From Escherichia coli (GTDB taxonomy: Bacteria; Pseudomonadota; Gammaproteobacteria; Enterobacterales; Enterobacteriaceae): a stretch of 64,000 nucleotides of DNA. Position 1 is the stretch's first letter. Every line of letters begins with the position of its first letter. The position numbers and the translations under genes are program-made. This document shows positions 6,531 through 41,708 of the stretch, one piece after another. The stretch is taken from the NCBI RefSeq assembly GCF_036507355.1, contig NZ_AP027877.1; one strand, 5' to 3'. The notes beneath the pieces are model-generated. The model was not told the origin of the DNA and did not search any database. It saw only the letters and a program-made list of their open reading frames with translations.

Positions 6531-6560
6531 CGATATTATTTGCAGTAATTATGTTATTAA

Positions 6561-10953: not shown

Positions 10954-11298
10954 GGAAAAGCCAGACCACTTATTTTGCTGGACATGTTGCTGGTTCTTTT
11001 ACTTTGAGAGATTTTAATTGATGGGTATTGTTTCTACGACAATAAAGTTTTGACAAAGAAGCAAATAAAATGCATATCTTTCGATTGTCACACATTGGAA
11101 TATCGACAGAGCATTGATGATATTACGCAAAATATATTGCAGCCAAGTGAACTGACATTACGATCGAACACAAATGCAACATGATGGATACTACCATTAC
11201 ATGTCGAGCTTGATTTTCCGTTTATTTCACGATTATCTCTTGATATTAACAGCTACGGACTTTTAAACAGATAAATCTCCCCGTACATCACCACAATA

Positions 11299-12069
11299 TT
11301 ATCCTTCGAAGTCCCGCAAAGCTCCGAAATATTTCGCGTCATTGGCTCTGAAAGCAATATCAAGACAGTGGGCAAAATAGCTTTCCTGACTGAGTTCACT
11401 GACTGCTTTCTCCTTCATCAGGACTTCAGCGTCGCAGATACAGCCCATCAATCCCACCTGTACATCATCCACCCGATTCATCTCCGGGTTGTCAGTAAGC
11501 CTGCGTTCTGGTGAAAAACTTCCTGATTTCCAGTTAATCTCACCATCACGGTCTAACCAGCTCCAGAACAACGCAATATCAGTAAATGTCGCCTGCTGCT
11601 CGTTAGTCAAAACATGTGTGAACAGTAAAGGGAACACCCGATTATCATAGTAACGCAGCAATCCGGTCTGTTCTTCCCACTGAACCTGTGACAATACCTG
11701 AAGATGCCGCCCCAGCAGGTCGAATGTAAGAGGGGATATCAACAAAGTAAGACGCGGCGTATCAGCAAATGACGCCATCAGTTGTGCCAGAAATTTGCGA
11801 TGGCTACTGAGCGCAAAGTACAGGCGTAACACTACAGGGGAATACTCCATCGTCTCAGCTTCAGGCGTTCCTTCAAACAGGGCATACCAGTGAATGGCTG
11901 GCGACAGATGAAGCATATCATTTTGCAAAGGTTGGTCGGTTCCAGCCTGGTCAACAAGCACATCTATGTAATCCAAACCAGCGGCAGAACAGAATGATTC
12001 AGCTTGCTTCAGCCAGATAATATATTTGTCTTGATCGGTAGCGTGTGGCGATACTGTTATCATTGTCAT
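11299..12069 (-). CDS. putative T6SS effector adaptor/chaperone (DUF4123-like, assigned by position)
   Basis: 256-aa ORF starting 6 nt after the vgrG-remnant stop (GGGAGA spacer acts as RBS) and preceding the Tle gene; the vgrG-DUF4123-lipase order is the canonical arrangement; domain not verified. Confidence 0.45.
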   Translation of the reverse strand: MTMITVSPHATDQDKYIIWLKQAESFCSAAGLDYIDVLVDQAGTDQPLQNDMLHLSPAIHWYALFEGTPEAETMEYSPVVLRLYFALSSHRKFLAQLMASFADTPRLTLLISPLTFDLLGRHLQVLSQVQWEEQTGLLRYYDNRVFPLLFTHVLTNEQQATFTDIALFWSWLDRDGEINWKSGSFSPERRLTDNPEMNRVDDVQVGLMGCICDAEVLMKEKAVSELSQESYFAHCLDIAFRANDAKYFGALRDFEG

Positions 12070-12075
12070 TCTCCC

Positions 12076-12470
12076 TTATCCACGAGGCGCAAAAACGGCG
12101 GCGGCTTCTTGCGCCCTTTTCAGGCACTCCTTACACACCGATTTTTCTGGCGCTTCCTCACCCTCATCGTTGTTATCATTCTGATCGGACGATGCATTAC
12201 TATCATTTTGCTCAGCCGCTAAACTTTTATCATCTGCCAGCGCTTTCAGAACCGCCGGTTGCAGCGTCGGCACCGGCGTTCCCGGACTACCGCCGCTATT
12301 GAGATTGATTTTCGGCCCGACGATGTCCACGCTCCCTGAATGGATGACCACAAACGAGCCGCCCACCTTCAGGCTTATCCGGCTGCTGCTCTCCAGCACC
12401 ACATCGCCCTCCACCTTTAACCACGCCACCGCAGTCAATGGCATCACCGGTTCTGGCGGTAGGTTTATCG
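12076..12470 (-). pseudogene. vgrG 3' remnant (second copy, DUF2345-like C-terminal region only)
   Basis: translation VEGDVVLESSSRISLKVGGSFVVIHSGSVDIVGPKINLNSGGSPGTPV is near-identical to the C-terminal region of the vgrG at 15531..17237; no upstream gp27/gp5 part. Confidence 0.75.
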
Positions 12471-12652
12471 TCGATAAAGGCGAAAGAGGTGTTTCCGGCT
12501 CTTAAGAAATATTTACGCACATGCACCAGCATTACAGAAAATAAAACCTGCGATACATTTTAATCAATAAGGTTGCTTTACCAAGCTTCCATCGATATTG
12601 ATGGAAAATTCATTAGACCTAATATGAACAGAATGTTGCTCATCATCTTTAT

Positions 12653-13339
12653 CTAATATTTGATTAACAAAAAAAACGTATTTTTATCAAATTCATAATT
12701 ATCACATCCCTCTCCACTAAATGATATAGCTCTAAAATCATATTCATTACATGAGTATCTTTTCATCAAAATAGAGAGGAATGTTTCATTAATTGATTTT
12801 AATACAAACCATTTTCTCCTAACAAGTTTGTAGTTTAATGTTTTTATATGATAATTATTTAAACTGGGGAGAAATGAATGCATATCATTCAATTTTACAT
12901 CAAAATATATTTTTTTACCTGCCGTAATTTCCACCCATCGGCTCAAATTCAAATCAAGCTCAAAGGGACAAAAGCCTCCTAGATAGTCTAAGCTAATATT
13001 TCCTGATGTAATCAAGAATTCGTCATCACACAAAGCATCAAATACATCTCCATTTCCTTTTTGGAAGTTCTTTGGATAATATATTCTGGGGAGAAAATAC
13101 GATTTAGTACTACTGTTATAAAAAGTTATAGTGGCTAAAATATTTTCAGCATGTGGCTTAACCACCAATTTAACAACAACATCATTTGTTAATTCATTAC
13201 TTATATTTTCCTCTGGCGCTAAATTATGGCTAAGATAAATAATTGGTTTCCCATTGTCACTTCTTCGTTCAAAACCGAATCTGTATTTTTTTACAAAAAG
13301 ATTCTCATTATCTATTGCAATTGCAATAGATAATGGCAA
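12653..13339 (-). CDS. hypothetical protein, candidate immunity protein for the upstream HExxH protein
   Basis: 228-aa low-GC ORF immediately downstream of the vgrG-coupled gene; start uncertain (the ORF-track start corresponds to a TTG codon); no family recognised. Confidence 0.35.
   Translation of the reverse strand: MPLSIAIAIDNENLFVKKYRFGFERRSDNGKPIIYLSHNLAPEENISNELTNDVVVKLVVKPHAENILATITFYNSSTKSYFLPRIYYPKNFQKGNGDVFDALCDDEFLITSGNISLDYLGGFCPFELDLNLSRWVEITAGKKIYFDVKLNDMHSFLPSLNNYHIKTLNYKLVRRKWFVLKSINETFLSILMKRYSCNEYDFRAISFSGEGCDNYEFDKNTFFLLIKY
13305..13336. repeat. 32-bp perfect palindrome
   Basis: ccattatctattgcaattgcaatagataatgg is its own reverse complement; overlaps the first codons of the 12653..13339 ORF. 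Confidence 0.85.
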
Positions 13340-13512
13340 AAAACAAAGAAAAAAACCATCAGTACAACATAATTTAGATTATAGAAAGCCAACCTCTTCA
13401 TCTTATTTCCCCGTCAACTCATCAAAACATTTTTCTATCTCTTTTATTTTATCCTCTACTTTTTTTGCTAACATATTCTCATCTTGAGCTTCAATATCTT
13501 CATTATTTAATT

Positions 13513-14205
13513 TTATATAAAATATCTTTCAACATTATATGCATTCTCAAATAACTGATCTTTACGCAATGTAACCAGATCATTAGCCACTGAAACATGT
13601 TTCTCATAGCTAACTTCATCCTTATTACTTGTTGCGAACTTATTAATACCCGTATAATCCTGAGTCCACATACCACCTTTTTGATTGTCACCCCAATACC
13701 AAAATATATGGGACATTTCATGGCAAAGTGTACTTACATGAGAGTCTCTACCTGTAACCGACTGTTTTATACCATGTCTGTATTCAAAATGCGCTCCGAT
13801 ATTTACAATGTAAGGAGGATCAAGATGTGGACTAATAAAAGCAGCAAATTCATTGCAGTTCGTATAATCTTTATAGCTTTCGATCGTCAAACCATTTGCA
13901 ATCGTCATTATTCGTCTGATGCCATCCATTATGAATAGTCTCGCTTGCATTCGTTTCCCAGTATCTTCCCCAACCTTTCTGATTTTTATAATGTCCTCGC
14001 CTTTAAGGCCAAAAACTTTAATAAAATCTCGTTGTTGCTCCCCCTCCCATGACATAATATCATCTGCTCTTTTCAATAAAACCATTTTCTGTGCTTTACA
14101 AGCCTTACTCATCATTATTTTAAATTTATTTGTAATTTTTTGCGGTACTACACATACTTGCGACTCGGGTTGTGAAGTCCCACTAGTATTATTATTCCCT
14201 GCCAT
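13513..14205 (-). CDS. putative T6SS cargo effector with HExxH motif (Zn-metallopeptidase-like candidate)
   Basis: 231 aa from MAGNNNTSGT (ORF-track start further upstream is IS-derived read-through); RBS GGAGGGG; start codon overlaps the reconstructed vgrG stop (ATGGCAGGGAATAA); HEMSH motif near the C-terminus; low GC. Confidence 0.45.
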   Translation of the reverse strand: MAGNNNTSGTSQPESQVCVVPQKITNKFKIMMSKACKAQKMVLLKRADDIMSWEGEQQRDFIKVFGLKGEDIIKIRKVGEDTGKRMQARLFIMDGIRRIMTIANGLTIESYKDYTNCNEFAAFISPHLDPPYIVNIGAHFEYRHGIKQSVTGRDSHVSTLCHEMSHIFWYWGDNQKGGMWTQDYTGINKFATSNKDEVSYEKHVSVANDLVTLRKDQLFENAYNVERYFI

Positions 14206-14349
14206 AATGCCCCTCCGGCTCAATATAAAAAGCATCCGAAAATAACAATTGGACTTTAATTTCCTGTGCTGTATCTGTATAAAAGTGAGGTAGCCTGAGT
14301 TTAACGGACACTCCTTCCTGAAATAGAATGGCATCAGAAGGAGCTAATA

Positions 14350-14652
14350 ATGAGCAGAAAAACCCAACGTTACTCTAAAGAGTTCAAAGCCGAAGCTGTC
14401 AGAACGGTTCTTGAAAATCAACTTTCGATCAGTGAAGGCGCTTCCCGATTATCTCTTCCTGAAGGCACTTTAGGACAATGGGTTACCGCCGCCAGAAAAG
14501 GGCTCGGTACTCCTGGTTCCCGCACGGTGGCTGAACTGGAATCTGAAATTCTGCAACTGCGTAAGGCGTTAAATGAAGCTCGCCTTGAGCGAGATATATT
14601 AAAAAAAGCAACAGCGTATTTTGCACAGGAGTCGCTGAAAAATACGCGTTAA
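14350..14652 (+). CDS. IS3-family transposase OrfA (HTH)
   Basis: 100-aa ORF MSRKTQRYSKEFKAEAVRTV... with leucine-zipper-like C-terminus. Confidence 0.85.
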   Translation: MSRKTQRYSKEFKAEAVRTVLENQLSISEGASRLSLPEGTLGQWVTAARKGLGTPGSRTVAELESEILQLRKALNEARLERDILKKATAYFAQESLKNTR

Positions 14653-14687
14653 TCGAACAATGGCGACAACAATTTCCCATTGAAGCG

Positions 14688-15506
14688 ATGTGTCAGGTAT
14701 TTGGTGTATCCAGGAGCGGTTATTACAACTGGGTACAGCATGAACCCTCAGACAGAAAACAAAGTGATGAGCGGCTAAAACTGGAGATTAAGGTGGCACA
14801 TATCCGCACTCGCGAAACATATGGAACCCGGCGGCTCCAGACGGAGCTGGCAGAGAATGGCATCATCGTTGGTCGTGACCGACTGGCACGTCTTCGTAAG
14901 GAGCTAAGGCTACGCTGTAAGCAGAAACGCAAGTTCAGAGCGACTACGAACTCGAACCACAATCTGCCAGTTGCGCCAAATCTGCTGAACCAGACGTTCG
15001 CTCCTACAGCACCAAATCAGGTCTGGGTGGCGGACCTGACGTATGTTGCCACACAGGAGGGATGGTTGTACCTCGCTGGCATCAAAGATGTTTATACGTG
15101 CGAAATTGTCGGCTACGCCATGGGAGAGCGCATGACAAAAGAGCTGACAGGTAAAGCCCTGTTTATGGCGCTCAGGAGCCAGCGCCCACCTGCCGGGCTA
15201 ATCCACCACTCTGATCGAGGTTCACAGTACTGCGCATACGATTACCGGGTCATACAGGAGCAGTTTGGTCTGAAAACATCAATGTCGCGTAAAGGTAACT
15301 GTTACGACAACGCTCCGATGGAAAGCTTCTGGGGAACGCTGAAAAATGAGAGCCTGAGCCACTATCGTTTTAATAACCGGGATGAAGCCATCTCAGTAAT
15401 ACGGGAATACATTGAGATTTTCTACAATCGTCAGCGTCGTCACTCTCGTCTGGGGAATATCTCCCCGGCAGCCTTCAGGGAAAAATATCATCAGATGGCT
15501 GCTTAA
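14688..15506 (+). CDS. IS3-family transposase OrfB (DDE integrase core; probably made as an OrfAB frameshift fusion)
   Basis: 272-aa ORF with DLTYV...HHSDRGSQY...SRKGNCYDNAPMESFW DDE signature. Confidence 0.85.
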   Translation: MCQVFGVSRSGYYNWVQHEPSDRKQSDERLKLEIKVAHIRTRETYGTRRLQTELAENGIIVGRDRLARLRKELRLRCKQKRKFRATTNSNHNLPVAPNLLNQTFAPTAPNQVWVADLTYVATQEGWLYLAGIKDVYTCEIVGYAMGERMTKELTGKALFMALRSQRPPAGLIHHSDRGSQYCAYDYRVIQEQFGLKTSMSRKGNCYDNAPMESFWGTLKNESLSHYRFNNRDEAISVIREYIEIFYNRQRRHSRLGNISPAAFREKYHQMAA

Positions 15507-15530
15507 AAAAAGAATAAATGGTAGTGTCCG

Positions 15531-17237
15531 CTATTGCCAGTACACCTCAAATATTTCTGTATATCCCTCTCTGTCTGTTTCACCACGCGTCTGTGTGCCA
15601 TCCTCAAAAAAGGCAATATACTGCGTCTCTGAATACGGTATCCCGTCATCGTCCGTAAAATGGAACTGGAGGGTATATTTTTCAGGATCATCTTCATCGT
15701 CACCGCCATCACCTCCTCCGTCACTCCCTGCGGGATTGCCACTATCCTCTCCGGAGTCATCACTGCCATCATCACTGCTCTCATCCTCCGGAGCCTCCAG
15801 CACCGCCGGCTGCATCGTCCCCACCGGTGTCCCCGCACTGCCCCCACCGTTCAGGTTTATCTTCGGCCCGGCAATATCCACTCCGCCCGGCTGAATGACG
15901 ATAAACGAGCCACCCACCTTCAGGCTTATCCGGCTGCTGCTCTCCAGCACGATATCCCCGTCCACTTTTATCCCCAGCGCGCCACTCACCTTCTCCGCCA
16001 GGTCCCCCTTCACCACCAGGCTGTGTTTCCCCTCCACCAGACTGATATGGTTCCCCGTCGTCTTATGCTCCTGCTTCCCTTCCACCGTCACTTTACGGTC
16101 GTTTCTGACGTACAGACCGTCATCGTGACTCACGCTCACCGTCCGGTCATTCGTCACCTTCAGAGTCTGGTCATTACGTACCGTGATACGCCGGTCGTTC
16201 GCCACCGTGATACTCTGGTCGTGGCCCCCCTCTTTTTTTGTACCGACCTGAACCGTCTGACCCTTCACCACCGTTATCTTCTGGTCGTTACCGATGGTTT
16301 CCGTATGGTCATGTTTTACATCCGTTGTCCGGTCGTTGAGCACCTCCGTATCCATGTTCTTCTGCGCATGGATATACACCTGCTCATTACTGGTGGCGTC
16401 TTCAAACCGCAGCTCGTTAAATCCGCTTCCTTTATAGGTTTTTGACCGTATCGTCATCTGCGTCTTCGTTCCCGGCAGGTCGCCCGGGGAGCGGTTGTCC
16501 TCATGGTACGTCCGCCCCATGATTATCGGCTGGTCCGGGTCTCCGTTCAGAAAATCAACAATCACCTCCTGGCCCACCCGCGGTATCGCCAGATTACCGA
16601 ACCCCGGCCCCGCCCACGCCTGCGATACCCGCACCCAGCATGAACTCGCCTCCGTCATCCCGTGATAACGGTCCCAGTGGAACTTCACCCGTACCCGGCC
16701 ATGTTCATCGCAGAAGATTTCCTCTCCCGCAGGCCCGGTGACAATGGCACTCTGCGGCCCGTCCACCTTCGGTTTGCTTTGCAGCCGTGGACGCCACGTC
16801 CGGTCCGCCGGTATCACCTCTAACTGATTTCCCAGCGTGGTTCCTCTCCCTTGGCTGCCGTGCAGCGCCTGCGGCTGGCTTCCTGACAGTATGCTCTGTA
16901 CCACCTGCCATTCACGGTTCAGCATCTTCTGCGGATGCCCCGTCAGCGTAAACCGCGTTCCCGGCCACAGCCTCGGCGAATTACTCTGCCCTGTGGCCTT
17001 TTCCGCATCACTGCGCAGGCTCTCCATCTGGTACAGCGTGAAATCCTTGCCGTGCTGCTCATCCTTGAACCTTCCCGGATAATCAAATATTTCATACTGC
17101 GCCAGCTGTCCGTTCAGGTTCTCACCCTGCTGCTCATACATCCCCGGCCAGTCCGGCACCTTAAACGTGTAATCCTGGCTCTGCACCGACGACGGGCGGA
17201 CATGCGCCTCATACGCTACCGCCCGGGTTTCCGGCAT
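15531..17237 (-). pseudogene. vgrG: vgrG (T6SS spike) lacking the N-terminal ~220 aa and interrupted 33 codons before its stop by IS600-like copy 1
   Basis: 568-aa ORF with gp5-like OB-fold motif (GPAGEEIFCDEHGRVRVKFHWDRY) only ~165 aa from its start, repeated VxxNDR beta-helix segments, DUF2345-like region, acidic Gly/Asp linker and a short C-terminal domain; the last residues EVYWQ are encoded by the IS terminus. Confidence 0.8.
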
Positions 17238-19113: not shown

Positions 19114-19926
19114 GTGCTGGATGTTCATCCCAGTGGTTTTTACGCCTGGCTTCAGCAGCCGCATTCACAACGCCATCAGGCAGACCTGAGGCTGACAGGG
19201 CAGATTAAACAGTTCTGGCTGGAATCGGGATGCGTCTATGGTTATCGCAAAATCCATCTGGATCTGCGGGACAGCGGGCAACAGTGCGGAGTGAACAGAG
19301 TCTGGCGACTGATGAAACGTGTCGGGATAAAGGCTCAGGTCGGATACCGGAGCCCGCGGGCACGTAAAGGCGAGGCCAGTATCGTGTCGCCCAACAGGCT
19401 CCAGCGACAGTTCAATCCGGATGCTCCGGATAAGCGTTGGGTAACGGACATAACCTACATCAGGACCCACGAAGGCTGGCTGTATCTTGCCGTGGTTGTT
19501 GATCTGTTCTCACGCAAAATTATCGGCTGGTCCATGCAATCCCGGATGACAAAGGACATTGTCCTGAACGCACTGCTGATGGCTGTATGGCGCCGTAATC
19601 CCCAAAAACAGGTGCTGGTTCATTCGGATCAGGGCAGTCAGTACACAAGCCATGAGTGGCAGTCGTTCCTGAAATCACACGGCCTGGATGGCAGCATGAG
19701 CCGTCGCGGTAACTGCCATGATAATGCGGTTGCAGAAAGCTTTTTCCAGTTGTTGAAACGCGAACGGATAAAGAAAAAGATCTACGGAACGCGGGAAGAA
19801 GCCCGCAGCGATATTTTTGATTACATCGAAATGTTTTATAACAGTAAGCGTCGGCATGGTTCCAGCGATCAGATGTCACCGACAGAATATGAAAACCAGT
19901 ATTATCAACGGCTCGGAAGTGTCTAG
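19114..19926 (+). CDS. IS3-family transposase OrfB (DDE)
   Basis: 270-aa ORF with DITYIRTHEGWLYLAVVVDLFSRK...HSDQGSQYTS...SRRGNCHDNAVAESFF DDE signature. Confidence 0.85.
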   Translation: MLDVHPSGFYAWLQQPHSQRHQADLRLTGQIKQFWLESGCVYGYRKIHLDLRDSGQQCGVNRVWRLMKRVGIKAQVGYRSPRARKGEASIVSPNRLQRQFNPDAPDKRWVTDITYIRTHEGWLYLAVVVDLFSRKIIGWSMQSRMTKDIVLNALLMAVWRRNPQKQVLVHSDQGSQYTSHEWQSFLKSHGLDGSMSRRGNCHDNAVAESFFQLLKRERIKKKIYGTREEARSDIFDYIEMFYNSKRRHGSSDQMSPTEYENQYYQRLGSV

Positions 19927-20684: not shown

Positions 20685-20888
20685 TGGTGTGATGGACAGG
20701 AGTGTGATGTTGCAGGTGTGCTGCTCATCATCGATCCCATATCATTACGTTCGCTCACTAAGACGGAGTGCCTTTCGTCATTTAACCTGTCACAATCCAA
20801 ATAATTTCAGACAGATATTATCTCCGTGAATCCCCCGCCTCCTTAACCGGAGCGCGGGGATTTTTCTTTTTCACGTTGAGAACTCTGT

Positions 20889-21773
20889 ATGACTAAACCT
20901 CACGGCCTTCAGGCCCTTGAACAACCGCTGGCGTCGCTTCCCGATGCGCTTCGCCAGCTTATTCTTGAACGTATTCAGAATCTCACCCACTATGAGCCGG
21001 TGATTGGTATCATGGGCAAAAGCGGTGCCGGTAAGTCTTCGCTCTGTAACGAACTCTTCCGGGGTGAGGTCTCCCCCGTCAGTGATGTGAACGCCTGTAC
21101 CCGTGAAGTGCTGCGCTTCCGGCTGCGCAGCGGGCGTCACAGTCTGGTGATTGTTGATTTACCGGGTGTGGGAGAAAACGGGCAACGGGACCATGAATAC
21201 CGTGCCCTGTACCGGCGTATGCTGCCGGAACTGGACCTGGTTCTGTGGGTCATTAAGTCCGATGACCGGGCGCTGTCGGTGGACGAGCAGTTCTGGCGCG
21301 GTGTGATGCAGCCTTACCAGCAGCAGGTGGTGTTCGTGATTAACCAGGCCGACAAAATAGAACCCAGCCATGAATGGGATACCCGTTCTGGTACTCCCTC
21401 AGCACAGCAACAGAAAAATCTTCAGGAAAAGCAGGTTGCCATTACCACGATGTTTAAGCCACATCACCCGGTCTGCGTGGTATCCGCATGTACCGGATGG
21501 GGCGTGGAGGATATGGTAGCAACCATGATGCGCTGTCTGCCGGACCGCGCCACCAGCCCAGTAGCGACACAGTTGCACGGGAGGCTCTGCACGGAGCCGG
21601 TAAAGTCGCAGGCCCGTGACGGCTTCGGTGAGGCGGTGGGGCGGTGGGGCGGGTGTTCGATACGGCAGAATCATCGTTATTCCTGCCTGCGCCGCTGAAG
21701 ACGGTGATACGTACCGTGCGTGATGCTGTGGTGTCTGTAGCCCGCGCGGTCTGGGACTGGATCTTCTTCTGAA
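20889..21773 (+). pseudogene. YeeP/YkfA/YfjP-like prophage GTPase with a probable 3' frameshift
   Basis: Walker A GKSGAGKSS, G3 DLPG and NQADK G4 motifs; the ORF ends at 21698 but a plausible conserved C-terminus (...TVIRTVRDAVVSVARAVWDWIFF) continues in another frame to about 21773. Confidence 0.65.
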
Positions 21774-22032
21774 TGAGTAAAAGGTCATCAGGACTGTAGT
21801 GAATGACTCTGTTTATTCACCGCCTGGTAGATGATTATTTCCAGGCAGACATAACCTGTCCTGACCAGCAAAAGATACCACCAGTCATAAGCGCGTCACC
21901 ACTGCCGACGTTGCATCCACACAGTCTTCTTGCACCAGGCGTTTCGCTACGTATGACGGACACAACCTGTCAGTCCCATCCTTTACAGTAATACCTTCTT
22001 TATTAATCAATTACCCAACACGGAGATAATAC

Positions 22033-22736
22033 ATGTCTCAGGCTGAGCGTCGTTATGACCGCCTGTCTGTCCGGCTTTCTCTAATTATCAGCCGTCTGCT
22101 CGCGGGTGAAACGCTGAATATGCGCAAACTGGCCGCTGAGTTTGGCATCTCGGAGCGTACCCTACATCGTGATTTCCGCGAGCGTCTGATTTATCTCGAC
22201 CTCGAATATCAGGATGGCTGCTGCCGTCTGCTGACCGGAGGCCGTCAGGAGATTCGGGAGGAGGCCGCAATGCAGTTTGCCCGTCAGTCAGGCACTGGCG
22301 CGTTGTTTCCTGATATGGACCACCATCTGGTCAATTCATTGCTGAGCAGCAAGGACTCCTCGCCATGTCTTATCTGGCATCCGTAACGTCTTCCCGCCCA
22401 GGCATCTTCACACGACTGGTCAGGGCGGTATCAGAAAACAGGAAGGTAACCCTGCTGGCTGACGGATGCCGTTGCGACAACCTTGCCCCCTACCGACTGA
22501 TTTTCAGCACCGGTGGGTGGTTTCTGGTGGGGGAACACCTTGCCCGGATAACCGTTTTTGCACTGCACACAGTTCACTCCGTGACGTTTCACGCGGAAAC
22601 CTTCACACCAGACGGACATTTCACCCGCATTCTGTCACACCCGGATTTTTTACAGGCGTTACCTCATTTTCATGTTTTTCATTCACTACTCGCTGACGGC
22701 AGTTACGGGCAGCTTACCCATAAGGAACAGGCATGA
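22033..22736 (+). pseudogene. YfjR-like HTH/WYL transcriptional regulator, split into two overlapping ORFs (22033..22386 and 22365..22736)
   Basis: N-terminal HTH ([21 protein letters not shown]) in ORF 1; ORF 2 in a different frame carries a WYL-like segment (GGWFLVGEH); combined length about 235 aa fits a single regulator. Confidence 0.45.
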
Positions 22737-23368
22737 AATTACTCACCTCGGCGGCGCTGGCCGCCAGCCTCTGCATTACCTCTGTGACCCCGGCCATCGC
22801 AGAAAATATCGTGGGTTCAGTTAAGGCCTGGCAGTACATGCAGGCTGATGGCTGGAAATCCGCTGATGGATACGATGATAACCGCATGCATAACGAGTTA
22901 TACCAGGCGGTCGTTCTTGATAATTATCCCTGGACGAATCACTTTCTGCTTCGTAGCAGAGGCGGTAGTTCGCTTTATCTGGCAGACAAGAAAGCTAAAA
23001 CTGTCAAATACATCGATATAAAACCTCGCGACGAGTATCCGTTACATCTTCAGGTTGTTTATCGGGGAATTGATGACGGGAGTGGCTGTTATTTCGCCAT
23101 TGTAGATGACCGAATGGCAAACTACTGGACGATTGTTGAAGATCGTCTTCTCTATCAGGACCCACCTGTTGAAGACGTCGATGCGAAAGCAGCTGAGCTT
23201 AGAAAACAACTCACGCCGGAAGTCGTGATGATGGTGAAGGATAATTGTATTGACAAACAGCAGCAGGCTGCACTGGCAGCTAAGCGTTCTGAAAAAGATC
23301 GAGAGTTGCAACAGTGGGTGGCGAAACAGAGCCTGGCGGAATTATGTCGTCGTACCGGCAACTGCTGA
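22733..23368 (+). CDS. hypothetical secreted protein (CP4-like remnant)
   Basis: 211-aa ORF with signal peptide MKLLTSAALAASLCITSVTPAIA; start overlaps the preceding stop. Confidence 0.5.
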   Translation: MKLLTSAALAASLCITSVTPAIAENIVGSVKAWQYMQADGWKSADGYDDNRMHNELYQAVVLDNYPWTNHFLLRSRGGSSLYLADKKAKTVKYIDIKPRDEYPLHLQVVYRGIDDGSGCYFAIVDDRMANYWTIVEDRLLYQDPPVEDVDAKAAELRKQLTPEVVMMVKDNCIDKQQQAALAAKRSEKDRELQQWVAKQSLAELCRRTGNC

Positions 23369-23403
23369 CCCGCTGAAAACAACCATAACAGGGAGTTTTT
23401 AAC

Positions 23404-23856
23404 ATGAATATATTTACTACGCGTCTGACGACCTCTCTGGTGGTCATCGGCACTCTGCTGCTCTCCGGCTGCGACAGCAAGGAAGATGCAGGCGTGAAGA
23501 CGATTGCCCGATTTAAGGACCTGACTCCGCCGCCCTTCAGCGACGTGGTGGCGCATAAATCCGATATCGAGCAGGAATGGGTAAAAAAGGATGCCTTCGG
23601 CACACCGCTATACACGGTAATGAAAACTCGCCAGTCGCCGGAAGGCTGTGAGTCCGGCAGTTATTACTACATTGCTGATATGCAGCAGAAAACGGTGCAG
23701 CCGCTGATAGCCGCCCTGTGTCTCGCGGACAATATTACTCTGAGCTTCCGGATCGAGACCGACAGCTACACGGGTGAGAAATCGGTGGTGTATTCGCACG
23801 ATGGCAAGGAAATGGGGAAACTCTTGCTGCCGGATAACCAGGAGAACCATCCATGA
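23404..23856 (+). CDS. hypothetical lipoprotein (YfjS-like position)
   Basis: 150-aa ORF with lipobox LLLSGC. Confidence 0.5.
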   Translation: MNIFTTRLTTSLVVIGTLLLSGCDSKEDAGVKTIARFKDLTPPPFSDVVAHKSDIEQEWVKKDAFGTPLYTVMKTRQSPEGCESGSYYYIADMQQKTVQPLIAALCLADNITLSFRIETDSYTGEKSVVYSHDGKEMGKLLLPDNQENHP

Positions 23857-24305
23857 AGAAGCTGAAAGGTGTTATCTCTGCTGCAGTCCTGAGTCTGTAT
23901 TTGCTGACACCGGCCCATGCTGATGGCGGTTTTCAGGGTGCCATCAAAGGCGGCATTCCGGCCTACACCCGCGATGTAAAACACAACAACCCCTTCTGGT
24001 GTAACCAGTACAAACTGGTGAGAAAGATGTGTGAAGTGGTTTCGCAATCGGAAAATGGGCGCGTTGCCATTGTCAGAATGGTCCCCACCGACTGGAAATG
24101 CCCCAACGGTATCTGGGGTGTGGTTGACCGTTCTAATGGTGACGCCATGGAGTTGGTCCCGACGGCGAAAATGTCCCTGGAGCAGTACTGCAGCAAGGCA
24201 TTCAGTGCAGGTTTTGTCAAACCACAGAACAGGAAATCACTGGCCGACGTCGTGATGTACTACAACGGCAAGCCAGTCGGTTCTTTCGAATACATTGAAG
24301 AGTGA
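23853..24305 (+). CDS. hypothetical secreted protein (YfjT-like position)
   Basis: 150-aa ORF with signal peptide MKKLKGVISAAVLSLYLLTPAHA; overlaps the previous stop (operon-like). Confidence 0.5.
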   Translation: MKKLKGVISAAVLSLYLLTPAHADGGFQGAIKGGIPAYTRDVKHNNPFWCNQYKLVRKMCEVVSQSENGRVAIVRMVPTDWKCPNGIWGVVDRSNGDAMELVPTAKMSLEQYCSKAFSAGFVKPQNRKSLADVVMYYNGKPVGSFEYIEE

Positions 24306-24367
24306 ACTCCCCGCCTCAGGGAGAAGCTTCCCGTATTCATTTAACACATTAAAAATAAAGGAAAAGA

Positions 24368-24910
24368 ATGAACTGGCATTATGAGAAAAATGGCGTGCGT
24401 CACGACAATGTGACCGAAGCCGACATAACCGAACGTATTCAGCGCGGGGAGCTGAATGCCTCAACGCTGGTATGGCAACAGGGCATGACGGAATGGCAGC
24501 CGCTGTCAGCCACGCCGCTGGCAGATGTCCTGAAACAATGTGCGGTTCCCCCCGCGCTGCCCGGCAATCGTATCCCCGGAAGCATGGTCTGGACGCTGGC
24601 CTTTGCGCCCCTGATTGGGTATGCCCTGGAGATGTGGACGGCCGGGCTGAGCGGAATGGAATTTGAAGAGGCGTATGCCGCCGTGACGGAGGGGCAATAC
24701 TGGTTTATCACACTGATACTGAATATTGCGCTGGGGTATCTGGATGAACGACGGCTCCGTAAATCCGGCGTTGATACCGCCGCCTTTGGCTGGCTGGCCT
24801 GGCTGGTTCCGTTTTATCTGTGGCGTCGGGCAAAAGCCCTCGGACAGAAACCGGCTTACTTCTGGGTCTGGCTGGTCACGCTGACAGTGACAGTCCTGGG
24901 CGCAGGATAA
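24368..24910 (+). CDS. hypothetical membrane protein with N-terminal GYF-like/DUF4339-like segment
   Basis: 180-aa ORF; NGVRHDNVTEADITERIQRGELNASTLVWQQGMTEWQPL followed by hydrophobic helices. Confidence 0.45.
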   Translation: MNWHYEKNGVRHDNVTEADITERIQRGELNASTLVWQQGMTEWQPLSATPLADVLKQCAVPPALPGNRIPGSMVWTLAFAPLIGYALEMWTAGLSGMEFEEAYAAVTEGQYWFITLILNIALGYLDERRLRKSGVDTAAFGWLAWLVPFYLWRRAKALGQKPAYFWVWLVTLTVTVLGAG

Positions 24911-24969
24911 CCGGCATCAGCGCTGTCCGGCCCGGATGAGCAGGCAAGTTAAATCAAGGAACAATATCA

Positions 24970-25800
24970 ATGAACAACATGCTGAAAAGTGTTATTTCCG
25001 CTGCGACCCTGAGTCTGTGTCTGCTGACACCCGCTCATGCAGAAGAGCAACGTTATATCAGTATTCCCAGCGTCTTCGGGGAAGGTAAGCACGTGTCCCG
25101 TTCAGACCATTACAGCTACATACCGACCATTACCCTGCTGGAGAACCTGCAGCGTGAAGGATTCCAGCCGTTCTTTGCCTGCCAGACCCGCGTCAGGGAC
25201 CAGAGCCGCCGTGAGCATACGAAACATATGCTGCGCCTGCGTCGCTCCGGGCAGATAACCGGTCAGCAGGTGCCGGAAATTATCCTGCTCAATTCGCATG
25301 ACGGTTCGTCCAGTTACCAGATGTTGCCGGGGTATTTCCGTGCCATCTGTACCAACGGTCTCGTCTGCGGGCAGTCATTTGGCGAGGTGCGAGTGCCACA
25401 CCGGGGAAATGTCGTGGAGAAAGTGATTGAAGGCGCTTACGAAGTCCTCGGTGTGTTCGACCGGGTGGAAGAGAAGCGTGATGCGATGCAGTCGCTTTTA
25501 CTCCCGCCACCGGCACAACAGGCTTTTGCCAGAGCCGCGCTGACGTACCGCTTCGGGGAAGAGCACCAGCCGGTGACGGAAGCGCAGATACTGACACCCC
25601 GCCGCTATGAAGACCGTCAGGATGACCTGTGGTCAGTTTTTAATCGGTGCCAGGAGAACCTGCTCAAAGGGGGGCTGCCAGGACGTACTGCCAAAGGCAA
25701 ACGCAGCCATACCCGCGCGGTGAAAGGCATCGACGGCGACGTTAAGCTCAACCGGGCACTCTGGGTGATGGCGGAAAAACTGCAGCAGGCGCTGAGCTGA
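24970..25800 (+). CDS. DUF932-like prophage protein carrying an N-terminal signal peptide
   Basis: 276-aa ORF; signal peptide MNNMLKSVISAATLSLCLLTPAHA homologous to that of ORF 23853; body contains YIPTITLLENLQREGFQPFFACQTR; family assignment from memory. Confidence 0.45.
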   Translation: MNNMLKSVISAATLSLCLLTPAHAEEQRYISIPSVFGEGKHVSRSDHYSYIPTITLLENLQREGFQPFFACQTRVRDQSRREHTKHMLRLRRSGQITGQQVPEIILLNSHDGSSSYQMLPGYFRAICTNGLVCGQSFGEVRVPHRGNVVEKVIEGAYEVLGVFDRVEEKRDAMQSLLLPPPAQQAFARAALTYRFGEEHQPVTEAQILTPRRYEDRQDDLWSVFNRCQENLLKGGLPGRTAKGKRSHTRAVKGIDGDVKLNRALWVMAEKLQQALS

Positions 25801-26067
25801 TGCCACCACTGCCTGATAACGCCCACCCGGCCGCCATTAATCCTGCCCCCTGGAGAACAACCCCGGCAGCCGCCCCATCTCCGATGACGACCTGTGCGCC
25901 TGTGCTCACACCTTCTTTATCGTCCCGGTGAACTCAGTTTCTGCCGGTTAAGTCTCGCTGACGGCCACTGGCCCTCACACTGTGATGAAGACGGCTATGC
26001 GCAGTCCTGTCCGTCACTCCGATTGAACCGGTATCCCCAACACAATGAATGAAAGAGGAAAAACAAC

Positions 26068-26538
26068 ATGACCGATAACACTCTGCCACTGTTCACACCC
26101 GCAGCAGATGCTCCTGCTGCGGCTCAGCATCAGATTATCGCTATACCGGTAACCGATGAGAACCGCATCAGCTTCTGGCCGCAGCACTTTGGCAGCATTC
26201 CGCAGTGGATAATCCTTGAGCCGACCATCTTCGCGTGGATGGACCGCTTCTGCACGGACTACAGCGGCGGCATCTGGAATTTTTACACGCTGAGCAACGG
26301 CGGCGCGTTTATGGCCCCGGAAGTGGAGAACGATGAACTCTGGTCGCTGTTTAACACGATGAACGGCAACGGCGGTGACATGAGTGCCGAAGCTGCAGGG
26401 ATTGCGGTCTGTCTGATGGCTTTCAGCCACCATGCCTGCCGTACCGAATGCGACGCCATGACGGAGCACTACTACCGCCTGCGGGACTACGCGCTCAACC
26501 ACGCGGAATGCAACGCCATCATGCACATCATCGACTGA
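26068..26538 (+). CDS. antirestriction protein, KlcA/ArdB family (YafX/YfjX-like)
   Basis: 156-aa ORF; sequence and gene order typical of CP4-type remnants. Confidence 0.75.
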
Positions 26539-26549
26539 GGTCAGCCGCT

Positions 26550-27029
26550 ATGGAGCAACAGTTACCGTTGTTTGCCCGTGAATTAGCCCCTGCCGACCAG
26601 CAGACAGTCAGGAAAGCCTTATCTCTGCTGGAGTGCCAGCTACGTGAAACCGGCGCGTCATTTACTTCCAGCCATGCTGTCCGCGACTGGCTGCGCCTGC
26701 AGCTCGCGTCACTGGAGCGGGAAGAGTTTACCGCGCTCTTTCTCGATAACCAGCATCGCCTGATAGCCCACGAAACGCTATTTACCGGCACCATCAACCA
26801 TACGCAGGTCCATCCCCGCGAAGTGGTGAAGGCCGGTCTGAAGCATAACTGCGCCGCTGTCATTGTCGCCCATAGCCATCCCTCCGGGGAGGCTGAACCC
26901 AGCAAGGCAGACCGTCAGGTCACTACGCGTATTCAGCAGGCGCTGGACCTGGTTGATATCCGCTTGCTGGACCACCTGGTGGTCGGCGGCATGGAGATCA
27001 CCTCGTTTGCAGATCGTGGCTGGCTGTAG
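26550..27029 (+). CDS. RadC-like JAB-domain protein (YkfG/YeeS/YfjY-like)
   Basis: start at internal MEQQLPLF of ORF 26448..27029; JAMM motif [14 protein letters not shown]. Confidence 0.8.
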
Positions 27030-27049
27030 CACAACAGGAGAATAACCGA

Positions 27050-27271
27050 ATGAAAATTATCAGTAAACGTCAGGCTATGGCGATATACCGCCAGCATCCG
27101 CAGTCCCGGTTGTTTCCCTTCTGCACGGGTAAATACAAATGGTCTGGCAGCATCTGCCACTACGCTGGGCAGGAGGTTCAGGATATCAGCGGTGTGCTCG
27201 CGGTCTTCGCTGAACGCCGTCAGAACCGCAACGGCCCCTATGTCGTATTACGCAGCGTCACGCTGAATTAA
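27050..27271 (+). CDS. DUF987-family small protein (YkfH/YeeT-like)
   Basis: 73-aa ORF immediately upstream of the antitoxin gene, conserved position. Confidence 0.65.
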   Translation: MKIISKRQAMAIYRQHPQSRLFPFCTGKYKWSGSICHYAGQEVQDISGVLAVFAERRQNRNGPYVVLRSVTLN

Positions 27272-27294
27272 CACACGTTTAAGGAAGGCTAAAA

Positions 27295-27654
27295 TTGTCG
27301 AATAAAATACCGACAGTAAACCACGATATCACTGAACCCTGGTGGGGGCTTAAACGCAGTATCACGCCCTGTTTTGGCGCACGGCTGGTGCAGTCGGGCA
27401 ACTGTCTGCATTATCTCGCTGACCGGGCCAGCATCACCGGACAGTTCAGCGACGGGGATTTACGGCATCTCGACCAGGCATTTCCACTGCTGCTCAAACA
27501 GCTTGAACTGATGCTCACCAGCGGTGAACTCACTCCCCGCCATCAGCACTGTGTCACGCTCTATGCAAAAGGGCTGACCTGCGAGGCCGACTCCCTCGGC
27601 TCGCATGGTTACGTATACCTGGCGATTTATCCGACACCAGCGGCAACCGCGTAA
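27295..27654 (+). CDS. type IV antitoxin, CbeA/YeeU/YafW family
   Basis: 119-aa [24 protein letters not shown]...; canonical neighbour of the CbtA toxin gene. Confidence 0.8.
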
Positions 27655-27704
27655 AGCTTCTTACTACTTACCCTCGTTTTACCCATCAACAAAGAGATCC
27701 CACT

Positions 27705-28082
27705 ATGCAAACCCAACCACTATCCTCAACGCAGGAGGCTACATCACGCCCGTCACCGGTGGAGATCTGGCAACGGCTTCTGAGCCACCTGTTGGATCGT
27801 CACTACGGTCTGACGCTTAACGACACGCCGTTTGGCAACGACGGTGTGATTCAGGAGCATATCGACGCCGGTATATCACTGTGCGACGCCGTGAATTTTA
27901 TTGTGGAGAAGTACGATCTGGTGCGCATCGATCGTCACGGTTTCAGTACAGAAACACAGTTGCCGCGTCACACCAGTATCGATATTCTCCGCGCCCGCAA
28001 AGCCACCGGGTTGATGACTCGCAACGATTACAGAACGGTGACCGACATCACCACCGGTAAATACCGTGGGGGGCATCGATGA
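27705..28082 (+). CDS. type IV toxin, CbtA/YeeV/YkfI family (cytoskeleton-targeting)
   Basis: 125-aa ORF following the antitoxin gene; sequence typical of the CbtA family. Confidence 0.8.
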
Positions 28083-28570
28083 AGTTATCCCTGACGGTAG
28101 AAGCCGACGCCATCAACGTTCTGGCCCTGAATGCGGGCCGGATCGCTGTGGATATTGACGGCATTGAACTGGCTGCGCTGATCGATGTGGTCTGTGATAA
28201 CGGTTATTCCCTTCGCGTTGCTGACTCCCCCGGAAAGCTGGTCGTTGAAGATCCGCTTCCACCCGTCGCCCGCGTTAATGGCATCCAGTGCAGTACCGCG
28301 CATATTACGGAGAAAGACAACGCTCTGCTGTTTACTCTTTCACACCAGAATGAAGACTTTGGTGAGTCGGAATGGATTAGTTACACCGGGTCGGGTTATC
28401 TGCTCCACCTGGGTGCCTGGTCATTTCCGGTCTTACGCCTCAAACGTCTCGGTCTGTCGAAAGCCTGCCGTCGGTTAGTAGTGACGCTTATCCGTCGCTA
28501 CGCCGTTGGCATTGTTCATCTGGATGCCTTTGGCGAAGTGCTGCCGGGCTTTGACATTTTCGACTGGTAA
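28079..28570 (+). CDS. hypothetical protein (YeeW-like position)
   Basis: 163-aa ORF overlapping the toxin stop; family not verified. Confidence 0.4.
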
Positions 28571-28601
28571 ATCTTCTCACCAATAAGCACAGGATATTCT
28601 C

Positions 28602-28805
28602 ATGGAGAAATTAACCACCGAAGTGGCTCTCAACGTTCTGATTGACTGGCTGCAGGACAACATCGATTGTGGGAACATGATTATTTTCGACAACGACGAA
28701 GACAACACCGATTCAGCAGTGCTGTTGCCCTGGATTGAACGTGCGCGTCAGGACGTTCGCGATCTCCGTCATCTTCAACTTCTGCGACAGACCAGTACAG
28801 ATTAA
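28602..28805 (+). CDS. small hypothetical protein
   Basis: 67-aa ORF in the CP4-like remnant. Confidence 0.3.
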   Translation: MEKLTTEVALNVLIDWLQDNIDCGNMIIFDNDEDNTDSAVLLPWIERARQDVRDLRHLQLLRQTSTD

Positions 28806-28861
28806 CCACCGAACAGTACTCATCACTTACTCATAATCGCCAGCCCTCACCGGCTGGCGCT

Positions 28862-29730
28862 TTGCTTTATATAAGGAACGAAATAATGTCAGAGCTTACT
28901 CTCACCAAACCCGAAGTATTAACCGGCCACACCGACGTGATTTGCTCCACCAGCATTGAGCGTATTGTCACGGGACGTAATGCCGCGCTGGCGCAGATTG
29001 AAGTGCTCATGCAACAACTGGACGATGTTTCGATGCTGACCCGCAGTCTCGGGGGAAAAACCGCGCTGGACTGGGCTATGAAGCAGGATTTCCGTTGCGG
29101 CTGCTGGTTGATGGAGAAACCAGAAACGGCGATGAAAGCTATTACCCGTAATCTCGATCGCAGCATATGGCGAGACCTGATGAAGAAGTCGGGCATGATT
29201 TCGCTCATGGATGCTCAGGCTCGTGACCAGTGGTACAACAGTCTGGAAAAGGATGACATTCCTGCCGTCAGCGAAGAGAATATTCTCAGCACGTTTGAGC
29301 AACTGCATCTGAACAAGGGCGAGGTGTTTGAGCGCGGAGTGATAAATGTGTTCAAAGGTTTAAGCTGGAATTTTAAGACAAATTCCCCTGCAAGTTTGGG
29401 GCGAAAATTATCGTTACCGGACTAGTCAAGTTCGATCGGTGGGGATTTGGGCTTAACTGGGGCTGGCAGCGTGACCGGTTAGCTGACCTTGAGCGTATGC
29501 TGATGCTTCTTGATGGCAAACCGGTTCCCTACAACCGCGCTGACGTTACCCGTCGTCTCAGCGATCATATCCATGAGAACAGGCACAGTAACCGTTACGA
29601 GGATGAGATGTTTGTGATTAAGTATTTTCAGAAGGGAACTGCACACATCGTATTCAAGCGACCTGAGTTGATTGATAAGCTGAACAACATCATCGCCCGA
29701 CACTATCCGGGAGCACTGCCAGCGAGATGA
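28862..29730 (+). pseudogene. DUF4942-like prophage protein, probably frameshifted (ORFs 28862..29425 and 29497..29730)
   Basis: two consecutive ORFs of 187 and 77 aa in different frames at the island end next to aspV; combined size fits the single ~270-aa genes found at this position in CP4-type elements; family assignment tentative. Confidence 0.4.
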
Positions 29731-29822
29731 GAGGTGAGTGAGTTGTCCGAAGCTATCTCAGGTGAGCCAGTGCAAGCCGGACGGCAATGGCATACTGGAT
29801 GGCATACCGAAAAAAACAAGCA

Positions 29823-29854
29823 TAAAAAAGGCCATGCTAATCAATAGCATGGCC
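29823..29854 (-). terminator. rho-independent terminator downstream of aspV
   Basis: hairpin ggccatgcta-atcaat-agcatggcc with T-tract on the minus strand. Confidence 0.55.
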
Positions 29855-29862
29855 TCGAATAG

Positions 29863-29939
29863 TGGCGGAACGGACGGGACTCGAACCCGCGACCCCCTGC
29901 GTGACAGGCAGGTATTCTAACCGACTGAACTACCGCTCC
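29863..29939 (-). tRNA. aspV: tRNA-Asp (GUC)
   Basis: reverse complement GGAGCGGTAGTTCAGTCGGTTAGAATACCTGCCTGTCACGCAGGGGGTCGCGGGTTCGAGTCCCGTCCGTTCCGCCA; identical to the copy at 38087..38163. Confidence 0.95.
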
Positions 29940-30071
29940 GCGTTGTGTTCCGTTGGGAACGAGGCGAATATTACGGATTGCCTCACCCTTCGTCAATGGT
30001 TTTTCTCATCTTTTGAATCGTTTGCTGCAAAAATCGCCCAAGTCGCTATTTTTAGCGCCTTTTACAGGTAT

Positions 30072-30803
30072 TTATGCCCGCCAGAGGCAGCTTCCGCCTT
30101 TCTTCTGCACCAGATCGAGACGGGCTTCATGTGCTGCAAGCTCTTCATCTGTCGCAAAAACAACGCGTAACTTACTTGCCTGACGTACAATGCGCTGAAT
30201 TGTTGCTTCACCTTGTTGCTGCTGTGTCTCTCCTTCCATCGCAAAAGCCATCGACGTTTGACCACCGGTCATCGCCAGATAAACTTCCGCAAGGATCTGG
30301 GCATCGAGTAATGCCCCGTGCAGCGTTCGTTTACTGTTATCTATTTCGTAGCGGGCACATAACGCATCGAGGCTGTTGCGTTTACCGGGAAACATTTTCC
30401 TCGCCACCGCAAGGCTATCGGTGACCTTACAGAAGGTGTTGGTCTTCGGAATATCACGCTTAAGCAACGAGAACTCGTAGTCCATAAAGCCGATATCGAA
30501 CGCTGCGTTATGGATCACCAACTCCGCGCCGCGGATATAGTCCATGAACTCATCGGCTACTTCGGCAAACGTGGGCTTATCGAGCAAAAACTCATCGGCA
30601 ATACCGTGTACGCCAAAGGCTTCCGGATCCACCAGCCGATCGGGTTTGAGATAAACATGGAAGTTATTGCCCGTCAGGCGACGGTTCACCACTTCAACGG
30701 CACCAATCTCAATGATCTTGTGGCCTTCATAGTGCGCACCAATCTGGTTCATACCGGTGGTTTCGGTATCGAGAACGATCTGGCGTGTAATTGCAGTGCT
30801 CAT
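30072..30803 (-). CDS. dnaQ: DNA polymerase III epsilon subunit (3'-5' proofreading exonuclease)
   Basis: 243 aa from [19 protein letters not shown]; DEDDh exonuclease motifs. Confidence 0.9.
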
Positions 30804-30867
30804 AGCGGTCATTTATGTCAGACTTGTCGTTTTACAGTTCGATTCAATTACAGGAAGTCTACCAGAG

Positions 30868-31335
30868 ATGCTTAAACAGGTAGAAATTTTCACCGATGGT
30901 TCGTGTCTGGGTAATCCTGGACCTGGGGGCTACGGCGCTATTTTACGCTATCGCGGACGCGAGAAAACTTTTAGCGCTGGCTACACCCGCACCACCAACA
31001 ACCGCATGGAGTTGATGGCCGCTATTGTCGCGCTGGAGGCGTTAAAAGAACATTGCGAAGTCATTTTGAGTACCGACAGCCAGTATGTCCGCCAGGGTAT
31101 CACCCAGTGGATCCATAACTGGAAAAAACGTGGCTGGAAAACAGCAGACAAAAAACCAGTAAAAAATGTCGATCTCTGGCAACGTCTTGATGCTGCGCTG
31201 GGGCAGCATCAAATCAAATGGGAATGGGTTAAAGGCCATGCCGGACACCCGGAAAACGAACGCTGTGATGAACTGGCTCGTGCCGCGGCGATGAATCCCA
31301 CACTGGAAGATACGGGCTACCAAGTCGAAGTTTAA
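30868..31335 (+). CDS. rnhA: ribonuclease HI
   Basis: 155 aa from [23 protein letters not shown]; divergent from dnaQ as in K-12. Confidence 0.9.
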
Positions 31336-38086: not shown

Positions 38087-38163
38087 TGGCGGAACGGACG
38101 GGACTCGAACCCGCGACCCCCTGCGTGACAGGCAGGTATTCTAACCGACTGAACTACCGCTCC
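38087..38163 (-). tRNA. aspU: tRNA-Asp (GUC), distal gene of the rrnH operon
   Basis: identical to aspV; follows the 5S rRNA. Confidence 0.95.
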
Positions 38164-38215
38164 ACCGAATTCTTTTACAACCACCGGTTTTATGACCGGC
38201 TTACTGCTTAATTTG

Positions 38216-38335
38216 ATGCCTGGCAGTTCCCTACTCTCGCATGGGGAGACCCCACACTACCATCGGCGCTACGGCGTTTCACTTCTGAGTTCGGCATGGG
38301 GTCAGGTGGGACCACCGCGCTACGGCCGCCAGGCA
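38216..38335 (-). rRNA. rrfH: 5S ribosomal RNA
   Basis: reverse complement TGCCTGGCGGCCGTAGCGCGGTGG...GGGAACTGCCAGGCAT, 120 nt. Confidence 0.95.
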
Positions 38336-38427
38336 AATTCTGTTTTATCAGACCGCTTCTGCGTTCTGATTTAATCTGTATCAGGCTGAAAATCTTCTCT
38401 CATCCGCCAAAACAGCTTCGGCGTTGT

Positions 38428-41330
<2,903 letters not shown>

Positions 41331-41589: not shown

Positions 41590-41631
41590 ATAACATGTAG
41601 TTAAAACCTCTTCAAATTTGCGGTGCAAATT

Positions 41632-41708
<77 letters not shown>

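What the first reader, a model, noticed from the sequence alone, without database searches (positions are those of the whole stretch)
24970..25800. DUF932-like protein carries a signal peptide homologous to that of a neighbouring gene
The first ~24 residues (MNNMLKSVISAATLSLCLLTPAHA) resemble the signal peptide of the ORF at 23853 (MKKLKGVISAAVLSLYLLTPAHA), at both protein and DNA level, but the body looks like the DUF932 family, which I recall as normally cytoplasmic. This suggests a past recombination that grafted a secretion signal onto the gene.
Basis: inference. Interest (0 to 1): 0.3.

Follow-up and report, generated by a model that had tools for sequence, protein, structure and literature searches.

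The report
Deletion-made IrmA-leader/DUF932 fusion gene
An 870-base deletion, found in this one E. coli strain only, joined the secretion signal of a neighbouring irmA-like gene to a normally cytoplasmic DUF932 gene; this looks like ordinary decay of a cryptic mobile element, not a new secreted protein family.

Summary
ORF 24970-25800 has a DUF932 body (Pfam E 2.9e-50). Its first 24 residues form a typical Sec-type leader, 81% identical in DNA and 17/21 in protein to the leader of ORF 23853.

The graft idea is right in outline, but the donor and mechanism differ. In the intact version of this aspV-tRNA island (E. coli G5 and about 54 other complete genomes), three genes lie between the GYF/DUF4339 gene and the antirestriction gene: an irmA-family gene, a DUF905 gene and a normal 272-aa DUF932 gene. 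The window lacks exactly 870 bp of that stretch, with 1 nt of microhomology at the junction. The deletion fuses irmA-like codons 1-31 in frame to DUF932 from Pro29. The leader is therefore the irmA-like gene's own. Its likeness to ORF 23853 already exists in intact islands.

None of 5,426 complete E. coli genomes or the metagenome contigs has the junction. The exact protein occurs once among about 15 billion (BED23708.1). No other close or distant DUF932 relative examined has this leader. The lost 28 residues are conserved and predicted to be structured.

Most likely this is a strain-specific, probably inactivating accident in a decaying island. Interest is low.

The parts
24970..25800 (+). 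Chimeric ORF of 276 aa: irmA-like leader plus 8 mature residues, fused to DUF932 from Pro29 of the 272-aa parent. Identical to GenBank BED23708.1.
24970..25041 (+). Codons 1-24: Sec-type signal peptide MNNMLKSVISAATLSLCLLTPAHA, 100% identical to the 5' end of the irmA-family gene of strain G5 (L001 5671-5742). Predicted cleavage is after AHA.
   Evidence: (the PDB 5EK5 chain aligns from query residue 23)
25042..25064 (+). The last irmA-derived bases: seven whole codons and the first two bases of an eighth (EEQRYIS plus AT of the hybrid Ile codon ATT).
25064..25065 (.). Deletion junction. Window 20796-25064 matches L001 1495-5765 and window 25064-30900 matches L001 6635-12471. 870 bp are missing, the overlap is 1 nt (T), and the reading frame is kept.
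25065..25800 (+). DUF932 part (Pro29 to Ser272 of the parent, plus the stop codon), identical in protein to the G5 DUF932 protein.
24911..24969 (+). The irmA-like gene's own 5' region, with an AAGGAA ribosome-binding site 9 nt before the ATG. It now serves the fusion ORF. No sigma-70 consensus was found here.
23853..24305 (+). Neighbouring 150-aa exported protein of unknown function (phrog_17072). Its mature part is unrelated to IrmA and to DUF932.
24368..24910 (+). GYF_2/DUF4339 gene directly upstream, unchanged relative to the intact island.
26068..26538 (+). Antirestriction gene directly downstream, the normal right-hand neighbour of DUF932.

Best explanation
The ORF results from one 870-bp illegitimate deletion inside a CP4-like cryptic integrative element next to the aspV tRNA-Asp gene.

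The ancestral order, preserved in E. coli G5 and about 54 other complete genomes, is YfjS-like lipoprotein, 150-aa exported protein, GYF/DUF4339, irmA-family gene, DUF905, DUF932 (272 aa), antirestriction, RadC.

The deletion runs from codon 32 of the irmA-like gene to codon 28 of DUF932. The two genes share a reading frame and 870 is a multiple of three, so the product is in frame. It consists of the irmA-like leader, 8 further residues (EEQRYISI, the last from a hybrid codon), and then DUF932 from its invariant Pro29. These steps are shown.

The following steps are inferred. The fusion uses the irmA-like gene's translation signals. If made, it would be directed to the Sec pathway and cleaved after AHA. 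It lacks the conserved, structured first 28 residues of DUF932, and its strain lacks the irmA-like and DUF905 genes. It is therefore most likely a neutral or inactivating accident of island decay, not a new secreted function.
For: 1. The flanks are colinear with G5 and share a single breakpoint at 25064. Identity is 99.9% on both sides near the junction, with only 2 mismatches between 23800 and 25064 and none between 25064 and 26677.
2. G5 annotation places the IrmA-family gene (5671-6123), DUF905 (6200-6433) and DUF932 (6553-7371) in the gap. The junction sequences show 1 nt of microhomology, and the frames match: 882 and 870 are both divisible by 3.
3. The missing gene is a true IrmA relative: PDB 5EK5 IRMA matches at E 7.6e-54, starting at residue 23. 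IrmA has a predicted signal sequence and is released into culture supernatant (PMC4807369).
4. The junction is unique. All 54 genomes with at least 99% identity break exactly at query position 125, and 0 of 5,426 genomes span it. There were 0 exact matches in metagenome contigs. The exact protein is on 1 contig, against 857 or more contigs for a 272-aa parent form.
5. No other DUF932 relative carries this leader.
6. The replaced segment matters. In 96 diverse homologues, L19 is 83% conserved, T/S20 72% and A/V28 88%. The AlphaFold model (pLDDT 93.3) gives residues 11-30 block pLDDT values of 94-97, with strand 12-14 and helix 21-27.
7. The island is decaying elsewhere too: a 10-bp deletion splits the WYL regulator at 22377, and there is an 8-bp insertion in the GTPase gene at 21632.
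Against: - Nothing here shows whether the fusion is expressed, exported or degraded.
- The in-frame outcome has a one-in-three prior by chance, and the full Pfam DUF932 domain is retained (residues 41-265). A functional protein is therefore not excluded.
- The retained tail EEQRYISI loosely resembles the parental EELMQVV, so part of the N-terminal helix might be mimicked.
- The deletion is known from one assembly only, and reads were not available to confirm it.
Confidence: 0.86

Rival explanations
1. The 870-bp gap is an assembly or sequencing artefact, and the strain really has the intact irmA-like, DUF905 and DUF932 genes.
For: The junction is seen in one assembly only, and the look-up of encoding contigs holds no independent record of it.
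Against: The breakpoints are not in repeats. Only 1 nt is shared, and the leader-like repeat at 23888 is 1.1 kb away and not involved. Collapse errors normally need repeats. The record is a finished 4.64-Mb chromosome.
Confidence: 0.07
2. The fusion is a retained gain of function: a DUF932 domain now exported to the periplasm or the medium through the IrmA leader.
For: The fusion is in frame. The leader is complete, with an AXA site followed by acidic residues. The whole Pfam domain is retained, as are the family's invariant residues from P29 onward.
Against: It is a singleton with no spread. Twenty-eight conserved and structured residues are lost. The family is otherwise without leaders. Neighbouring genes in the same island carry frameshifts.
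Confidence: 0.04
3. The leader was copied from ORF 23853 by homologous recombination or gene conversion, which is the donor the first reader implied.
For: The two leaders are 81% identical in DNA and lie 1.1 kb apart in the same orientation.
Against: The fusion's 5' end, upstream region and 8 post-leader codons are 100% identical to the irmA-like gene of G5 and differ from ORF 23853 at 14 of 72 positions. ORF 23853 and the GYF gene between them are intact. Recombination between the two leaders would have deleted them.
Confidence: 0.01

Closest known systems
DUF932 / UPF0380 proteins of E. coli cryptic prophages (K-12 YfjQ of CP4-57; the 272-aa DUF932 protein WP_001234406.1 of strain G5)
   Same: From Pro29 onward the protein is identical to the G5 protein and about 75% identical to YfjQ. 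It has a full PF06067 match and the same right-hand neighbours: antirestriction, RadC, DUF987 and the CbeA/CbtA toxin-antitoxin pair.
   Different: The conserved N-terminal 28 residues (MRLASRFGRINQIRRDRPLTHEELMQVV) are replaced by a 24-residue signal peptide plus EEQRYISI. No other family member examined has this.
IrmA, the E. coli interleukin receptor mimic protein (PDB 5EK5; PMC4807369)
   Same: The first 31 codons, one shared hybrid codon, the ribosome-binding site and the upstream region are those of an irmA-family gene. The intact allele matches 5EK5 at E 7.6e-54.
   Different: Only 8 residues of the mature fibronectin-III-like domain remain, so none of IrmA's fold or cytokine-binding surface is present. 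In this island the intact irmA-like gene follows a GYF/DUF4339 gene, not yeeR as described for irmA.
Chimeric ORFs and pseudogenes made by deletion in decaying prophages and genomic islands (general knowledge)
   Same: A single illegitimate deletion with minimal microhomology, confined to one lineage and accompanied by frameshifts in neighbouring island genes.
   Different: By chance the fusion is in frame and joins a complete export signal to a complete Pfam domain, much like a laboratory signal-sequence fusion.

Membership tests
DUF932 (Pfam PF06067) | Match to the family HMM above the gathering score | tested here: met
   171.6 bits against a cut-off of 23, E 2.9e-50, model positions 2-227 of 227
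DUF932 (Pfam PF06067) | Invariant and near-invariant residues of the family (P29, C123, N125, H140, G230 in parent numbering) | tested here: met
   The sequence is identical to the G5 parent from P29 to the end
DUF932 (Pfam PF06067) | Family-typical basic, leaderless N-terminus with the conserved P-L-T/S..(D/E)(D/E/Q)(I/L)...(A/V) segment before the invariant Pro | tested here: not met
   Replaced by an irmA-like leader plus 8 residues. The segment is structured in the model, with block pLDDT 94-97 for residues 11-30
IrmA family | Mature fibronectin-III-like domain homologous to PDB 5EK5 | tested here: not met
   Only residues 25-32 of the roughly 126-residue mature part remain. The intact G5 allele matches 5EK5 at E 7.6e-54
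IrmA family | N-terminal signal sequence of the family | tested here: met
   100% DNA identity to the G5 irmA-family gene over codons 1-31
Sec-type (signal peptidase I) signal peptide | Positively charged n-region, hydrophobic h-region of at least 10 residues, small residues at -3/-1 | tested here: met
   K6; SVISAATLSLCLLT with a maximum 10-mer hydropathy of 2.01; A-H-A then E. By inspection only, with no trained predictor
Sec-type (signal peptidase I) signal peptide | Actual export and cleavage of this passenger | not testable with these tools
   Needs fractionation or a PhoA-type assay. IrmA itself is released to the supernatant (PMC4807369)
Deletion-generated gene fusion | Both flanks colinear with an intact reference, one breakpoint, and intervening genes present in relatives | tested here: met

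The most novel reading that the evidence does not exclude
The chimera could be expressed from the irmA-like signals and exported. That would make a natural secreted or periplasmic DUF932 protein with a new role. Separately, the ...SAA.LSL.LLTPAHA leader shared by two unrelated island proteins, together with the mosaic leaders within the ORF 23853 family, could reflect modular exchange of export signals among genes of these islands.
Probability: 0.05. Interest if true: 0.4.

Novelty: new member of a known kind. Interest (0 to 1): 0.12.

Why it matters
The finding matters little beyond annotation. It explains an odd "secreted DUF932" gene call as a strain-specific deletion. It shows that this strain has lost its aspV-island irmA-like gene, a relative of a studied vaccine antigen, along with DUF905. 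It also warns against inferring localisation or function for DUF932 from this ORF. If the fusion were shown to be exported, it would be a natural example of gene birth by signal-peptide capture, but nothing here points that way.

Tried and rejected
- **Do DUF932 proteins generally have leaders?** No, for close relatives, for 150 representatives at 50% identity and for K-12 YfjQ.
- **Is ORF 23853 the donor?** Rejected by identity: 81% against 100% to the irmA-like gene.
- **Promoter scan.** No sigma-70 consensus was found between the GYF gene and the fusion ORF, so the source of its transcription is unresolved.
- **Independent record of the fusion protein's contig.** Nothing was on record.

Full report
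**What is in the sequence.** ORF 24970-25800 (+) encodes 276 aa beginning MNNMLKSVISAATLSLCLLTPAHAEEQRYISIPSVFGEGKH. Residues 41-265 match Pfam DUF932 end to end (171.6 bits, E 2.9e-50). ORF 23853-24305 begins MKKLKGVISAAVLSLYLLTPAHAD.

The two leaders align at 58/72 nt (81%) with one extra codon. Identity drops to background immediately upstream (18/60) and downstream (23/90). BLASTP aligns only the leader, with 17/21 identical and E 6e-08. A 33-nt pattern from the shared core occurs only at these two places in the 64 kb, against 0 expected. Both leaders have the n/h/c layout of a signal-peptidase-I substrate with AHA at -3/-1.

**Where the leader came from.** A megablast of 24300-25900 against 5,426 complete E. 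coli genomes found strain G5 and others. They match at 99.9% but in two pieces spanning 2,471 bp instead of 1,601. G5's annotation (L001) gives this order:

- GTPase
- WYL regulator
- hypothetical protein
- YfjS/YafY lipoprotein
- hypothetical 150 aa (equivalent to ORF 23853)
- DUF4339
- IrmA family protein (5671-6123)
- DUF905 (6200-6433)
- DUF932 of 272 aa (6553-7371)
- antirestriction, RadC, DUF987, YeeU antitoxin, CbtA toxin, DUF5983, DUF957, DUF4942
- tRNA-Asp, then dnaQ

Pairwise BLAST shows window 20796-25064 matching L001 1495-5765 and window 25064-30900 matching L001 6635-12471. The window therefore lacks 870 bp.

The junction reads as follows:

- G5 left: ...ATATCAGTAT|CCGCAAT
- G5 right: ...GCAGGTTGT|TCCCAGCG
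- window: ...ATATCAGTATTCCCAGCG

A single T is shared. The two start codons are 882 nt apart and the deletion is 870 nt, both multiples of three, so the fusion is in frame. It consists of irmA-like residues 1-31, a hybrid Ile codon, and then DUF932 from Pro29.

Near the junction the window is almost identical to G5. There are two mismatches between 23800 and 25064 and none between 25064 and 26677. This is a simple deletion in a G5-like ancestor, not a mosaic of two islands.

**Identity of the truncated gene.** The intact G5 gene matches the crystal-structure sequence of IrmA (PDB 5EK5) at E 7.6e-54. The alignment starts at residue 23, right at the predicted cleavage site. IrmA has a predicted signal sequence and is found in culture supernatants (PMC4807369). 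The same 150-aa protein, also named Aec69, is seen on at least 1,000 contigs.

**How common the fusion is.** A 251-bp query centred on the junction found 69 genomes. In all 54 with at least 99% identity the match stops exactly at query base 125 (window 25064), and no genome spans the junction. The 29-mer across the junction has no exact match in the metagenome contig collection. The exact 276-aa protein is present once among about 15 billion proteins, as BED23708.1, locus VEE46_34760, on a 4,643,937-bp E. coli chromosome. By contrast, a 272-aa parent form is seen on 857 contigs. The fusion is a singleton.

**Does DUF932 normally carry a leader?** It does not. Of the close relatives returned, 90 start MRLASRFG and 20 start MKLASRFG. 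The rest are minor variants or truncated calls, and only the query's own record has the leader. Among 150 representatives at 50% identity, the region before the invariant Pro29 is a polar, basic segment with a conserved P-L-T/S..D/E..I/L...A/V pattern. One unrelated 398-aa chimera (P0178) has a leader-like start.

**Likely consequences.** These are inferred.

- The fusion keeps the irmA-like ribosome-binding site. No sigma-70 consensus is seen in the 59-bp spacer.
- The deletion removed two terminator-like hairpins that separate the three genes in G5.
- The leader is intact and followed by acidic residues, so Sec targeting and cleavage after Ala24 are plausible.
- The passenger lacks 28 residues that are moderately conserved across 96 diverse homologues (L19 83%, A/V28 88%).
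- In a high-confidence AlphaFold model of the parent (pLDDT 93.3), those residues form an ordered strand (12-14) and helix (21-27).
- The same island carries a 10-bp deletion that splits the WYL regulator and an 8-bp insertion near the 3' end of the GTPase gene.

Together these point to decay. The fusion is most likely an inert or inactivating by-product that also cost the strain its irmA-like and DUF905 genes.

**What remains unknown.**

- The reason for the shared leader between IrmA-family genes and the ORF 23853 family is also unresolved. The mature parts show no detectable similarity. Seven of the 14 leader differences are synonymous, so the sharing is old. Within the ORF 23853 family the leaders are mosaic relative to the mature parts. 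This was noted but not pursued.

**Verdict.**

- The kind of event is well known, and this instance is a singleton.
- Interest is low.

Noticed in passing
window 23853-23921 and 24970-25041; proteins P0317-P0319 and P0322: The leader ...SAA.LSL.LLTPAHA is shared by two otherwise unrelated exported proteins, the IrmA family and the 150-aa ORF 23853 family. Within the ORF 23853 family, members 82-86% identical in the mature part carry unrelated leaders, while a 58%-identical member carries the shared one. Half of the DNA differences between the two leaders in the window are synonymous. This suggests old, possibly modular, exchange of the 5' ends.
   Followed up: partly
window 22033-22736: The WYL-domain regulator (YfjR-like) is split into two ORFs by a 10-bp deletion at 22377 relative to strain G5, and is probably a pseudogene.
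   Followed up: partly
window 20889-21698: The GTPase gene (YfjP/YeeP-like) has an 8-bp insertion (GGCGGTGG, 21632-21639) relative to G5. This changes and shortens the C-terminus to 269 aa from 291 aa.
   Followed up: no
window 20796-22050 versus 22050-30900: The left end of the island is only about 90% identical to G5, with 139 of 159 differences lying before 22046. The rest is 99.6-99.9% identical. This points to a recombination boundary near 22.0 kb.
   Followed up: no
L001 6140-6175 and 6489-6518 (absent from the window): Two GC-rich hairpins followed by T-runs lie after the irmA-like and DUF905 genes in the intact island. Both were removed by the deletion, so the fusion has lost the terminators that normally insulate DUF932.
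   Followed up: no
[not shown]
   Followed up: partly
proteins P0007, P0044, P0051, P0178: Other structural variants of DUF932 genes exist in public data: a 12-aa in-frame N-terminal deletion, internal tandem duplications (317-322 aa), and a 398-aa chimera with a leader-like start.
   Followed up: no
window 8893-17237: Type VI secretion remnants are present: a Tle1-like phospholipase effector, a DUF4123 adaptor, and a VgrG lacking its N-terminus. IS3-family transposase genes lie at 14688-15506 and 19114-19926.
   Followed up: no
window 29863-29939 and 38087-41708: The island abuts tRNA-Asp (aspV), followed by dnaQ, rnhA, gloB and mltD, then a second tRNA-Asp and tRNA-Ala/Ile of an rRNA operon. 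This is the K-12 rrnH-aspV neighbourhood, and the core genes are 99.5% identical to E. coli.
   Followed up: partly
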